Assembly: GCF_013167455.1 (NCBI RefSeq)
Contig: NZ_CP038328.1
Source of the DNA: Escherichia coli O157:H7
GTDB lineage: Bacteria > Pseudomonadota > Gammaproteobacteria > Enterobacterales > Enterobacteriaceae
DNA: 64,000 nucleotides
Reading direction: 5' to 3' (one strand)
Shown in pieces: positions 1 to 3,000 of the stretch (positions within the stretch are counted from its first letter, which is position 1; every line of letters begins with the position of its first letter). Made by a program: the position numbers.

Positions 1-3000
1 TGATTTTCCTATAACGAAAGAAAGTGTTATTGTAGTTCATAATAGCATGAAGCTATACACTCAAATTCGTAAGCGAGCTCCTCAGGCAAGAGTGGTTATA
101 CATATGCATAATGCATTTGAACCAAAATTGCTTGAGCAAAATGTTAAAATGATAGTGCCTAGTTTATACTTGAAAAAGTATTACCAATCTTATTTAGCAA
201 ATGCAGATATTGAGATTGTACCAAATGGAATTGATTTAGAAACCTATCAATCTAATTTTCAGCCGATCACTAGAAGCGAACTTAATATCTCCCCTGAAGA
301 GAAAATTATTTTTTATGCTGGGCGTATCGTCCCTGACAAAGGCATATTGCTGTTGATGCAATCATTCGAAAAATTGGCCGCTGCTCACAAAAATTTAAAA
401 TTAGTTGTGATTGGTGATTATACAGAAATGAGTAAAAGTGACAAAGGTGCATATCAACGCAATGTCAGGGAAATTGCAAAACGTTTGAAGGATCGTTGCA
501 TTATGTTAGGAAGCATACCGCCTGAAAAGATGCATTGTTATTACCCACTGGCAGATTTAGTCGTCATTCCTTCCCAGTTCCAGGAACCATTTTGCATGGT
601 GGCAATTGAAGCTATGGGTGCTGGTAAGCCTGTTTTAGTGAGTACGCGTGGGGGGATGACGGAATTTGTCAAAGAAAATACTACGGGATTCCATTTAAAA
701 GAACCTATGACTGCAGACTCCATAAGCAGCGATATTTTAAAAACGTTAGCGAATCCTGAATTAACAGCAGTTGCAAAGCAAGGTCAGGACTTTGTGTTTG
801 ATCACTACAGTTGGGATGGCGTAACTCAAAGATTCGAAGAGGTTATTCATAATTGGTTTGAATAAATAAAAAGGCCGCATTATGCAGCCTTTTTTATTTT
901 TTACTTGTTTTTCATCGCTAATAATAAGCCGGCGTAAACGCCTAATAAATTTGGTTCAATTTGTTCTACGTTTCCACGGATAACAAAATAACCTATAAAA
1001 GATAGTAAGATTATATAATATGCATTATATGGTGAGCGATATTTATTCTTGACGCCATTTTTTATACACTCTTTCAATATTGCACAGTATAGCATCATAA
1101 GACTTACCAGCCCTAATAAACCAGTGCCAAACCAGATGAATAGCGCAAAATTATGTGGCCCTATTGATTGTCTAAAGGTCCATTCTGGATAATCAATGAC
1201 ACGTTTATTATAGACATCTTTATATGCAACGTTACCGTAACCATAACCAATAACAGGATTTTCTAATATTAGATCGAGTGCGCTGCCTTGAGTACCATTT
1301 GCATAGCGATAAGAACTATTAGTTTGTTGAAGTTTATACGTTAGCTTTGCGGTCATCTCCTTATGTGTGAAAATAACCGACAATGCAATGATGGCAACCA
1401 TTACTCCTACTAATAGTAACTTCCATTGTTTAAACATCAGAATCCATATTAATCCAATGACTAACACGGAAAGCCAGGCCCCTCTGGATAAAGTTCCTAA
1501 TATCAGAAAAATAAAAATAACGCTTAGAACCACAAAAGAAATGCGGTATTTTGCTGATTTGATAAGCCAGAGATTTAACAATGCAGGGAATAAAAAGACC
1601 ATCGAGTCAGAAATGCTACGGTGTCTATAATCTGCGAATGGCATTATCCCTTGTTGATAGTCCTTATAATAGGTAATCAATTCAGAAAAACAGCGTAAGC
1701 CCAACGCACTAATAAATGAGAAGAAAACGATTTTTTCGACATCTTCTCTTTTCTCGTCTCTCAATATGATCGGTATTGCTATTGTGCATAGTAAAGTATT
1801 CTCAATAATAGCTTTGAAAATTTCCTTCATGCTAGCACCTGCATCAGGGGATTGAAGAAGTGACAGCAATGCAGCAATAGTTAATATGGCAACACTACCA
1901 AAAAGAAATGTTTTAAATAGTGAGAGATAGTGTTTTGGCCGTTTGCAGAGATAGACGATTGTCGTTATTGTCATAAGAATAACAATAAGATGTTTATACC
2001 TTGTAATCCCACCCAAAAAATAGGTGGTAATGAATAAGAATACGAGAGCTCTGTTCCAGTACGCTATCCAGTTTTTTTTCTCGAGAGAGAAAAATAATGT
2101 TGAGGTCATCTTATCTCCGATGTCAACTTATTGGTTATTATTTCAAGATTTAAATTTTGAAAAACGGTTTGAGCTGGCAAATCTGCAAGAGACATACTTG
2201 TAGAACGACACTCTACTTGATTCTCCCCATACCCACCAATTAATCCCGGATCGGTTGGTCCATAAACCGTGATATTGGGTCTATCCAGTGCCGCCGTTAA
2301 ATGGCTTAACCCCGTATCCACCGACACTACAAATTTAGCCCCGGCCAGCACGCGGGCAACGCCTTCCAGACTCATCTTCGGCAATACTTCAACATAAGCA
2401 AATCCTTCCGCCAGTCGTTTCGCCCGTTCTTCCTCATGCGGCGCGCCCCACGGAAGTTTAATCCGTATTCCTGAATCAGCCAGTAAACCAATCAATTCTC
2501 GCCAGTGTTCTTCCGGCCAGTGTTTATCATCACGGGTCGTCGCATGAAGAAATACGGCATATTCGCCAGCATCTGTAGGCAGGTTCGTCAGAAAATGCTG
2601 TGCGATAGCATAATCGCCCTGGGTTTGCGGTTTGCTATAGCCCAAACTTTTGGCAAACAGTTCGCGGGTGCGTTCTACGGCGTGCTGCTGTTTTGCAATA
2701 TGATGCTTACGATTGTAAAACAGGCTGGCTAAAGGTTCGCGAGCGGTTTGCCAGTCCATGCCATGCTTTACGCCATGTGCCAGACGCGTAACCAGCGCCG
2801 CGCTTTTTACCAGCCCCTGAGCGTCGATAACTGCGTCATAGTTCTCTGCTTGTAGCGCTTCACGAAACGCTTTGCGTTCAGCTTTTATAGGGGCCGAGAA
2901 CCAGGCTTTACGCCAGCGACGTATTGCCACAGGAATAACTCGCTCAACGGCAGCGTGCCAGGAAGGAATCTGTGCGAACCCTTCTTCCACCACCCAGTCA

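What the first reader, a model, noticed from the sequence alone, without database searches (positions are those of the whole stretch)
2..2109. Outer-core end of the waa locus: GT4 gene adjacent to waaL hints at a non-K-12 core type
The gene convergent with waaL is a GT4-type transferase (E-x7-E motif), whereas I recall the K-12 gene at this position being a GT9 heptosyltransferase. With the EhaG-length adhesin this is consistent with a strain carrying a different LPS core type (for example R3), but only the 3' part of the gene is in the window.
Basis: partly seen in the sequence, partly recalled or inferred. Interest (0 to 1): 0.3.

Follow-up and report, generated by a model that had tools for sequence, protein, structure and literature searches.

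The report
R3-type LPS core genes waaD–waaL

Summary
Window 2..865 (+) is the last 287 codons of a 380-aa GT4 glycosyltransferase (Pfam Glycos_transf_1, E 2.8e-35). It converges on waaL (901..2109, −; NCBIfam RfaL equivalog, 692.7 bits) across a 35-bp gap holding a hairpin terminator.

Bases 1..27000 are 100% identical to E. coli O157:H7 chromosomes. There the GT4 gene is the last gene of a waaQ-G-P-O-Y-(GT8)-GT4 operon, the R3 order.

I fetched reference loci for all five core types and typed them with published LPSTyper primers:
- The window's WaaL and GT4 fragment are identical to the R3 (O157:H7) proteins.
- They are 52–53% identical to R2 WaaL and WaaK.
- They show no significant BLASTP similarity to K-12 WaaL or WaaU (Pfam Glyco_transf_9), R1 WaaL or WaaV (Pfam Glycos_transf_2), or R4 WaaL or WaaX (Pfam Glyco_transf_25).

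Primers published for deleting waaD in the R3 prototype strain F653 match the window exactly.

So the refuting outcome (best hits to K-12 waaU and WaaL) did not occur, and the R3 reading is supported.

Papers citing Kaniuk 2004 describe WaaD as the UDP-glucose:(glucosyl)LPS α-1,2-glucosyltransferase that adds the terminal glucose side branch. WaaL then ligates O antigen to the core.

This is already known, and interest is low. One caveat: PGAP names the GT4 gene a GlcNAc transferase by family transfer, which conflicts with those papers.

The parts
2..865 (+). The 3' 864 nt (287 codons plus stop) of R3 waaD. This GT4 glycosyltransferase is the last gene of the waaQ operon. The full gene is 1143 nt (380 aa), and its first 93 codons lie upstream of the window.
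   Evidence: Pfam PF00534 E 2.8e-35. Aligns with positions 94-380 of NF012028. 100% identical to residues 94-380 of WP_000227811.1 in O157:H7. 53% identical to R2 WaaK, with no hit to WaaU, WaaV or WaaX.
584..610 (+).
   Evidence: Found by regex, at the same position as EAFCMVAVE in R2 WaaK. It lies inside the Pfam Glycos_transf_1 match. The bare pattern also occurs by chance in non-GT4 proteins.
868..894 (.). Hairpin flanked by an A-run and a T-run in the 35-bp gap between the two convergent stop codons. It is probably a bidirectional intrinsic terminator for the waaQ operon and the hldD-waaF-waaC-waaL operon.
   Evidence: The terminator scan finds 1 site against 0.2 expected. Fold energies are -11.9 kcal/mol (+ strand, z -3.2) and -16.4 kcal/mol (- strand, z -5.3). 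Its function is inferred, not tested.
901..2109 (-). waaL (rfaL), the R3 allele of the O-antigen ligase, 402 aa.
   Evidence: NCBIfam equivalog RfaL 692.7 bits against a cutoff of 277, and Pfam Wzy_C E 1.1e-21. Identical to WP_000204742.1 of O157:H7. 52% identical to R2 WaaL, with no significant hit to K-12, R1 or R4 WaaL.
1111..1155 (-). Ligase motif H[NSQ]x9Gxx[GTY] (HNFALFIWFGTGLLG, WaaL residues 319-333).
   Evidence: Regex. The same motif is present at the equivalent position in the WaaL of all five core types. The motif definition is recalled from Schild et al. 2005, not from a tool.
2106..2218 (-). Type-specific 3' tail of waaC, which is the right-hand edge of the variable, low-GC part of the waa locus. 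The waaC stop codon overlaps the waaL start codon (ATGA at 2106..2109).
   Evidence: Megablast homology to non-R3 genomes stops at query position 110-113, about window 2218. The five-type alignment diverges from that point. GC is 33-42% to the left and about 52% to the right. The overlap is visible in the sequence.
2106..3098 (-). waaC (heptosyltransferase I, GT9), 330 aa. It is the conserved-backbone gene directly upstream of waaL in the same operon.
   Evidence: NCBIfam RfaC equivalog 632.8 bits, and Pfam Glyco_transf_9 E 2.4e-81.

Best explanation
The region is the distal end of the R3-type lipopolysaccharide core (waa) locus of an E. coli O157:H7-like chromosome.

The truncated plus-strand gene is R3 waaD, a retaining GT4 glycosyltransferase. 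According to papers citing Kaniuk et al. 2004, it uses UDP-glucose to add the terminal alpha-1,2-linked glucose side branch (Glc III) onto the last backbone glucose of the outer core.

The convergent minus-strand gene is the R3 allele of waaL, the inner-membrane ligase that transfers undecaprenyl-pyrophosphate-linked O antigen onto the completed core at the periplasmic face. waaL is translationally coupled to waaC through an ATGA overlap, as the last gene of the hldD-waaF-waaC-waaL operon. Both operons end at a shared hairpin terminator.

Shown here: gene identities, families, synteny, allele type and distribution. Taken from the literature or inferred: sugar donor and acceptor, the ligation site, and terminator function.
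For: - 100% identity of window 1..2109 to O157:H7 chromosomes. The block is present at 95% identity or more in 1363 of 5426 complete E. coli genomes, always once and always chromosomal. Window 2110..27000 is also 100% identical to O157:H7, including ehaG.
- In O157:H7 the gene order is waaA | rfaQ-waaG-rfaP-waaO-rfaY-GT8-GT4 >< rfaL-rfaC-rfaF-rfaD, which is the R3 organisation.
- In-silico PCR with the LPSTyper primers types that locus as R3. My five comparison loci type as K-12, R1 (two), R4 and R2 (two), each with the expected product size (PMC13293308 Table 2).
- BLASTP: WaaL is 52% identical to R2 WaaL (E 1e-143) and has no significant hit to K-12, R1 or R4. The GT4 fragment is 53% identical to R2 WaaK (E 1e-113) and has no hit to WaaU, WaaV or WaaX.
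- The transferase next to waaL has a different Pfam family in other types: Glyco_transf_9 in K-12, Glycos_transf_2 in R1, Glyco_transf_25 in R4, and Glycos_transf_1 in R2 and R3.
- The F653 (R3 prototype) waaD-deletion primers match the window exactly.
[quoted passage not shown] - O157 and EHEC strains are assigned to R3 (PMC8715443, PMC13293308).
- The low-GC block ends at about 2218, where homology to the other types ends.
Against: - Only the last 287 of 380 codons of waaD are in the window. The rest of the outer-core operon (waaQGP, waaO/I, waaY, waaJ) is not, so the full R3 gene set is inferred from identical genomes rather than seen.
- The R3 diagnostic primer sites lie upstream of the window (0 matches).
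- RefSeq/PGAP names the gene 'lipopolysaccharide N-acetylglucosaminyltransferase', and one paper attributes a GlcNAc residue to WaaD (PMC3184986). This conflicts with the glucosyltransferase assignment.
- I could not read the primary paper, Kaniuk 2004.
- No chemistry was or could be tested here.
Confidence: 0.96

Rival explanations
1. The locus is the K-12 core type. The gene facing waaL would then be waaU, the GT9 heptosyltransferase IV.
For: The flanking backbone (waaC, waaF, hldD, yibB, kbl, tdh) has the same order as in MG1655.
Against: No significant BLASTP similarity of the GT4 protein to WaaU or of WaaL to K-12 WaaL. WaaU matches only Pfam Glyco_transf_9 and the window gene matches Pfam Glycos_transf_1. 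The K-12 primers are absent. Megablast homology to non-R3 genomes stops at about window 2218.
Confidence: 0.001
2. The locus is an R2 or Salmonella-like core. The GT4 gene would then be waaK, a UDP-GlcNAc:(glucosyl)LPS alpha-1,2-N-acetylglucosaminyltransferase, as the RefSeq product name implies.
For: - Same protein family (NF012028, E 1.2e-163) and the same PGAP name in R2 and R3 genomes.
- Same convergent waaK/waaD >< waaL layout.
- 52-53% identity of both proteins to the R2 proteins.
- PMC3184986 links waaD loss to loss of GlcNAc.
Against: - Only 52-53% identity to R2, against 100% to the O157:H7 R3 locus.
- R2 loci carry waaZ between waaY and waaK, and O157:H7 does not.
- The R2 primers are absent from the O157:H7 locus.
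- Three papers citing the biochemical study call WaaD a glucosyltransferase (PMC3899070, PMC9927288, PMC12323348).
- From my memory of Kaniuk 2004, the R3 GlcNAc is added by plasmid-encoded WabB.
Confidence: 0.02
3. The locus is an R1 or R4 core type.
For: Both are common non-K-12 types (PMC13293308).
Against: - In R1 and R4 loci the gene next to waaL is a GT2 (WaaV) or a GT25 (WaaX).
- In those loci waaL is co-directional with that gene, not convergent.
- There is no BLASTP similarity to their WaaL, WaaV or WaaX.
Confidence: 0.001
4. The source strain has a hybrid or defective locus. It would carry the R3 waaD-waaL end joined to a non-R3 or inactivated upstream outer-core gene set, so its real core would differ from canonical R3.
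For: K-12/R2 hybrids exist (PMC13293308). One O157:H7 genome identical over this region has the adjacent GT8 gene (waaJ position) annotated as frameshifted. The upstream genes are outside the window.
Against: All 1363 genomes carrying this block cover it fully. 27 kb of the window is 100% identical to ordinary O157:H7 genomes. No R3 hybrids are reported in the typing paper passages I read.
Confidence: 0.02

Closest known systems
R3 core waa locus of E. coli O157:H7 and prototype strain F653 (waaD and waaL; Kaniuk et al. 2004, J Biol Chem 279:31237; Heinrichs et al. 1998)
   Same: Identical sequence over the whole finding, with the same gene order and orientation. The F653-derived primers match exactly. 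The R3 typing amplicon is present in the identical genome.
   Different: Nothing detectable. The window simply cuts the gene after its first 93 codons.
R2 core and Salmonella-type WaaK-WaaL pair (GT4 GlcNAc transferase convergent with its cognate ligase)
   Same: Same two protein families, the same convergent arrangement behind waaC, and the same PGAP product names. The E-x7-E and ligase motifs sit at the same positions.
   Different: Only 52-53% amino-acid identity. R2 has waaZ upstream and R3 does not. The reported donor sugar differs: GlcNAc for WaaK (PMC13293308) and Glc for WaaD (PMC3899070, PMC9927288).
K-12 core WaaU-WaaL pair
   Same: Same chromosomal position and convergent orientation. 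The backbone genes waaC, waaF and hldD are shared at 95-99% DNA identity.
   Different: WaaU matches Pfam Glyco_transf_9 (GT9 heptosyltransferase) and is unrelated to the GT4 gene. K-12 WaaL has no BLASTP-detectable similarity beyond the short ligase motif. A 9-nt gap separates waaC and waaL there, in place of the ATGA overlap.

Membership tests
E. coli R3 LPS core type | R3-specific waaL allele. Core typing by waaL alleles is the scheme used in PMC8715443. | tested here: met
   WaaL is 100% identical to the O157:H7 rfaL product, in a locus that types as R3. It is 52% identical to R2 and has no significant hit to K-12, R1 or R4.
E. coli R3 LPS core type | Presence of waaD, the GT4 gene next to waaL, stated to occur only in R3 strains (PMC3899070). 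| tested here: met
   The 287-aa fragment is identical to residues 94-380 of O157:H7 WaaD. The F653 waaD-deletion primer matches 827..860 exactly.
E. coli R3 LPS core type | LPSTyper R3 amplicon, waaJ to waaD, 1,021 bp (PMC13293308). | not testable with these tools
   Both primer sites lie upstream of window position 1, and the window has 0 matches. In the O157:H7 genome identical over the finding, the pair gives a 1,020-bp product.
E. coli R3 LPS core type | Full operon order waaQ-G-P-I(O)-Y-J-D with no waaS, waaB or waaZ. | not testable with these tools
   Only the last gene is in the window. The order is seen in the identical O157:H7 genome.
E. coli R3 LPS core type | R3 core oligosaccharide chemistry: Glc-Gal-Glc backbone, Glc III side branch, and GlcNAc on Gal added by plasmid-encoded WabB. 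| not testable with these tools
   This needs LPS structural analysis and the pO157 sequence. It is known for O157:H7 from Kaniuk 2004, as cited in PMC9927288, PMC12323348 and PMC3899070.
Glycosyltransferase family GT4 (GT-B fold, retaining) | Significant match to the Glycos_transf_1 C-terminal domain profile. | tested here: met
   PF00534 E 2.8e-35, 121.8 bits against a cutoff of 26.4. The nearest solved relatives by sequence include MshA, BshA, PimB'-like and TarM enzymes, which I recognise as GT4 family members.
Glycosyltransferase family GT4 (GT-B fold, retaining) | E-x7-E motif in the C-terminal domain. | tested here: met
   EPFCMVAIE at residues 288-296, conserved in position with R2 WaaK. 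The pattern alone is non-specific.
Glycosyltransferase family GT4 (GT-B fold, retaining) | N-terminal Rossmann-like acceptor domain. | tested here: inconclusive
   This domain is mostly outside the window. The full-length O157:H7 protein gives only a sub-threshold Glyco_transf_4 match (25.2 bits against a cutoff of 28.5).
WaaL O-antigen ligase (Wzy_C superfamily) | Match to the RfaL equivalog and Wzy_C profiles above the curated cutoffs. | tested here: met
   NF012031 692.7 bits against a cutoff of 277, full length. PF04932 77.6 bits against a cutoff of 31.7.
WaaL O-antigen ligase (Wzy_C superfamily) | Polytopic membrane protein carrying the H[NSQ]x9Gxx[GTY] motif. | tested here: met
   Multiple hydrophobic segments, and the motif at residues 319-333, shared with all five E. 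coli WaaL types. The motif definition is from memory. Exact topology was not modelled, and no PDB relative was found by sequence.
K-12 core type (WaaU, GT9) | A GT9 heptosyltransferase IV gene convergent with the K-12 waaL allele. | tested here: not met
   No significant similarity to WaaU or to K-12 WaaL. The Pfam families differ.
R2 core type (WaaK) | The waaK and waaL R2 alleles, with waaZ upstream. | tested here: not met
   Only 52-53% identity. waaZ is absent from the identical O157:H7 locus. The R2 primers are absent.

The most novel reading that the evidence does not exclude
Because the window begins 93 codons into waaD, the source strain could carry a hybrid or inactivated upstream outer-core operon. 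One otherwise identical O157:H7 genome has a frameshifted waaJ-position gene. In that case the strain's actual core and O-antigen attachment would differ from canonical R3.

A second, smaller point concerns the family-transferred RefSeq name 'N-acetylglucosaminyltransferase'. It appears on this gene in every listed genome carrying this block (1363 genomes carry it), and it probably misstates the donor sugar. WaaD and WaaK, at 53% identity, would then be a natural pair for mapping UDP-Glc versus UDP-GlcNAc selectivity in GT4 enzymes.
Probability: 0.03. Interest if true: 0.15.

Novelty: already known. Interest (0 to 1): 0.05.

Why it matters
It matters only as context. The cited surveys associate R3 with EHEC and with LEE-positive strains (PMC13293308, PMC8715443). 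The core type determines where O antigen is attached and which core-specific phages and antibodies bind.

No new biology follows. The one practical by-product is a caution: the RefSeq product name for this gene (GlcNAc transferase) is a family-level transfer that conflicts with the published glucosyltransferase assignment.

Tried and rejected
- Searching the window for the LPSTyper R3-F primer gave 0 matches. This is not evidence against R3. The primer sits at L001 12786..12805, in the 5' part of waaD about 200 bp upstream of the window start.
- I tried to read the primary biochemical paper (Kaniuk 2004) by DOI, and a guessed PMC id for Amor et al. 2000. Neither is held. The functional statements therefore rest on later papers that cite Kaniuk 2004 and on my memory of its abstract.
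- A sequence search of the PDB with WaaL found nothing at E 0.01 or better, so I made no structure-based check of the ligase. I judged a structure prediction not worth the cost for a known gene.
- E-x7-E as stand-alone evidence was rejected. K-12 WaaU (GT9) has four such patterns by chance.
- K-12, R1, R2 and R4 assignments were each tested against typed reference loci and rejected.
- The overlapping ORFs at 541..723 (-) and 1367..1630 (+) are antisense to well-supported genes, and I took them as spurious.
- I did not use the large protein-database, metagenome or genome-collection scans. The E. coli complete-genome collection already gave exact matches.

Full report
**What is in the sequence**

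ORF listing and direct reading show these features:
- An open frame on the plus strand runs off the left edge of the window and stops at 863..865.
- A 35-bp gap follows.
- A 402-aa ORF lies on the minus strand at 901..2109.
- Behind it on the same strand are waaC (2106..3098), waaF (3102..4148) and hldD/rfaD (4158..5090).
- yibB/htrL, kbl and tdh then follow on the plus strand.

The left-edge frame (2..865, 287 aa) matches Pfam Glycos_transf_1 at E 2.8e-35. It aligns with positions 94-380 of the 380-position NCBIfam model NF012028. It is therefore the C-terminal three quarters of a GT4 enzyme.

The minus-strand ORF is WaaL. It scores 692.7 bits on the RfaL equivalog (cutoff 277) and matches Pfam Wzy_C at E 1.1e-21.

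It is conserved in position with R2 WaaK. The bare pattern also occurs four times in the unrelated GT9 protein WaaU, so the family assignment rests on the profile match and not on the motif.

**Where the DNA comes from**

Megablast of 1..2109 against 5,426 complete E. coli genomes finds the block in 1,363 of them. It occurs once per genome, always on the chromosome, at 99% identity or more in 1,144 and at 95-99% in 219. Many O157:H7 strains match at 100%. Bases 2110..27000 are also 100% identical to O157:H7 chromosomes. That stretch includes the 1588-aa ORF at 22034..26800, which those genomes annotate as ehaG.

In O157:H7 strain PV15-279 the locus reads waaA | rfaQ-waaG-rfaP-waaO-rfaY-GT8-GT4 >< rfaL-rfaC-rfaF-rfaD. 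The GT4 gene is 1143 nt (380 aa), and the window begins at its codon 94.

**Test against all five core types**

I fetched the MG1655 locus. I then took five non-R3 loci from a spread sample of genomes that share the conserved waaC-waaF backbone. Product sizes matched expectation in each case.

| Locus | Strain or source | Type |
|---|---|---|
| L001 | O157:H7 PV15-279 | R3 |
| L002 | MG1655 | K-12 |
| L003, L004 | spread sample | R1 |
| L005 | spread sample | R4 |
| L006, L007 | spread sample | R2 |

BLASTP results for the window proteins:

| Comparison type | WaaL | GT4 fragment |
|---|---|---|
| R3 (O157:H7) | identical | identical to WaaD residues 94-380 |
| R2 | 52% identity (E about 1e-143) | 53% identity to WaaK (E about 1e-113) |
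| K-12 | no significant alignment | no significant alignment to WaaU |
| R1 | no significant alignment | no significant alignment to WaaV |
| R4 | no significant alignment | no alignment reported to WaaX |

Pfam places the transferase next to waaL in a different family in each group:
- Glycos_transf_2 in R1 (WaaV).
- Glyco_transf_25 in R4 (WaaX).
- Glycos_transf_1 in R2 and R3.

In R1 and R4, waaL is co-directional with the outer-core operon rather than convergent.

Two primers published for deleting waaD in the R3 prototype strain F653 match the window exactly, at 827..860 and 1295..1326. Published surveys place O157 and EHEC strains in R3.

The specific answer is R3.

**Edges and architecture**

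Homology to non-R3 genomes stops at about window 2218, inside the last 37 codons of waaC. An alignment of all five types diverges from exactly that point. GC content is 33-42% to the left and about 52% to the right. This fits the published picture of a low-GC variable centre in the waa locus (PMC8715443).

The waaC stop and the waaL start overlap as ATGA at 2106..2109, which suggests translational coupling. In K-12 the two genes are 9 nt apart.

The 35-bp gap between the convergent stop codons holds a hairpin at 868..894, flanked by an A-run and a T-run. The terminator scan finds 1 site against 0.2 expected. Fold energies are -11.9 kcal/mol on the plus strand (z -3.2) and -16.4 kcal/mol on the minus strand (z -5.3). 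I read it as a shared bidirectional terminator. This is an inference.

WaaL carries the motif H[NSQ]x9Gxx[GTY] at residues 319-333, as do the ligases of all five types. The motif definition is from my memory of Schild et al. 2005.

**How it works**

The function comes from the literature, not from tests here:
[quoted passage not shown] It adds that loss of the gene removes the terminal glucose.
- PMC9927288 says the HexIII glucose added by WaaJ bears a glucose substituent added by WaaD.
- PMC12323348 describes the O157:H7 outer core as Glc I-Gal I-Glc II-Glc III with GlcNAc on Gal, and says WaaL transfers O antigen to Glc II.

The first two cite Kaniuk et al. 2004 (J Biol Chem 279:31237), which I could not open.

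There is a discrepancy. PGAP names the gene 'lipopolysaccharide N-acetylglucosaminyltransferase'. This is evidently a transfer from family NF012028, which also covers R2 WaaK, a GlcNAc transferase according to PMC13293308. PMC3184986 also attributes a GlcNAc residue to WaaD. I give more weight to the three papers that repeat the biochemical assignment.

**Comparison and verdict**

This is the known R3 waaD-waaL junction, identical to O157:H7. Its nearest relative among the other core types is the R2 WaaK-WaaL pair. That pair has the same families and layout but only about half the residues identical and a different reported donor sugar.

Nothing here is new.

The only residual uncertainty is that the upstream outer-core genes are outside the window. 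A hybrid or defective operon in the source strain therefore cannot be formally excluded, at about 2-3%.

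Noticed in passing
window 8996..10031 (waaH): The waaH ORF in the window ends early, at 10012 (338 aa). Strain PV15-279, the O157:H7 genome I fetched (identical over window 1..2109), annotates waaH as a frameshifted pseudogene. The first 875 nt are collinear with an intact waaH, so the shift lies in the last ~150 nt. An A7 run at 9978..9984 is a candidate site.
   Followed up: partly
window 5379..6251 (yibB/htrL) and flanks 5100..6450: yibB/htrL sits in a low-GC island (31-38% GC). It is present between rfaD and kbl in O157:H7, K-12 and one R1 strain. It is absent from the other R1 strain, the R4 strain and both R2 strains I fetched. Its presence therefore varies independently of core type.
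   Followed up: partly
L001 11702..12714 (outside the window, just upstream of waaD): In O157:H7 strain PV15-279 the GT8 gene at the waaJ position is annotated as frameshifted and contains a stop codon. If real, that strain would lack the O-antigen attachment glucose. Whether the window's source genome shares this cannot be seen.
   Followed up: no
window 2..865; all listed RefSeq genomes carrying this gene: There is a product-name conflict. PGAP calls R3 WaaD an N-acetylglucosaminyltransferase, and PMC3184986 also links it to GlcNAc. PMC3899070, PMC9927288 and PMC12323348 (the first two citing Kaniuk 2004) give a glucosyltransferase. Separately, the text of PMC13293308 glosses the R3 'waaD' target as the ADP-heptose 6-epimerase (a name clash with rfaD/gmhD), although its R3-F primer lies in the GT4 gene.
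   Followed up: partly
window 22034..26800 (-): This 1588-aa ORF is annotated as the trimeric autotransporter adhesin EhaG in the 100%-identical O157:H7 genomes.
   Followed up: partly
L003, L004 (R1) and L005 (R4), waaL at about 3087..4377: In R1 and R4 loci waaL lies on the same strand as the outer-core operon and converges on waaC. In K-12, R2 and R3 it follows waaC on the opposite strand. All five types have their own waaC 3' tail beginning at the same point.
   Followed up: partly
L006 902 and L007 899 (R2 loci): The LPSTyper K12-R (waaY) primer also matches R2 loci exactly. K-12 specificity in that scheme therefore depends on the waaU primer alone.
   Followed up: no
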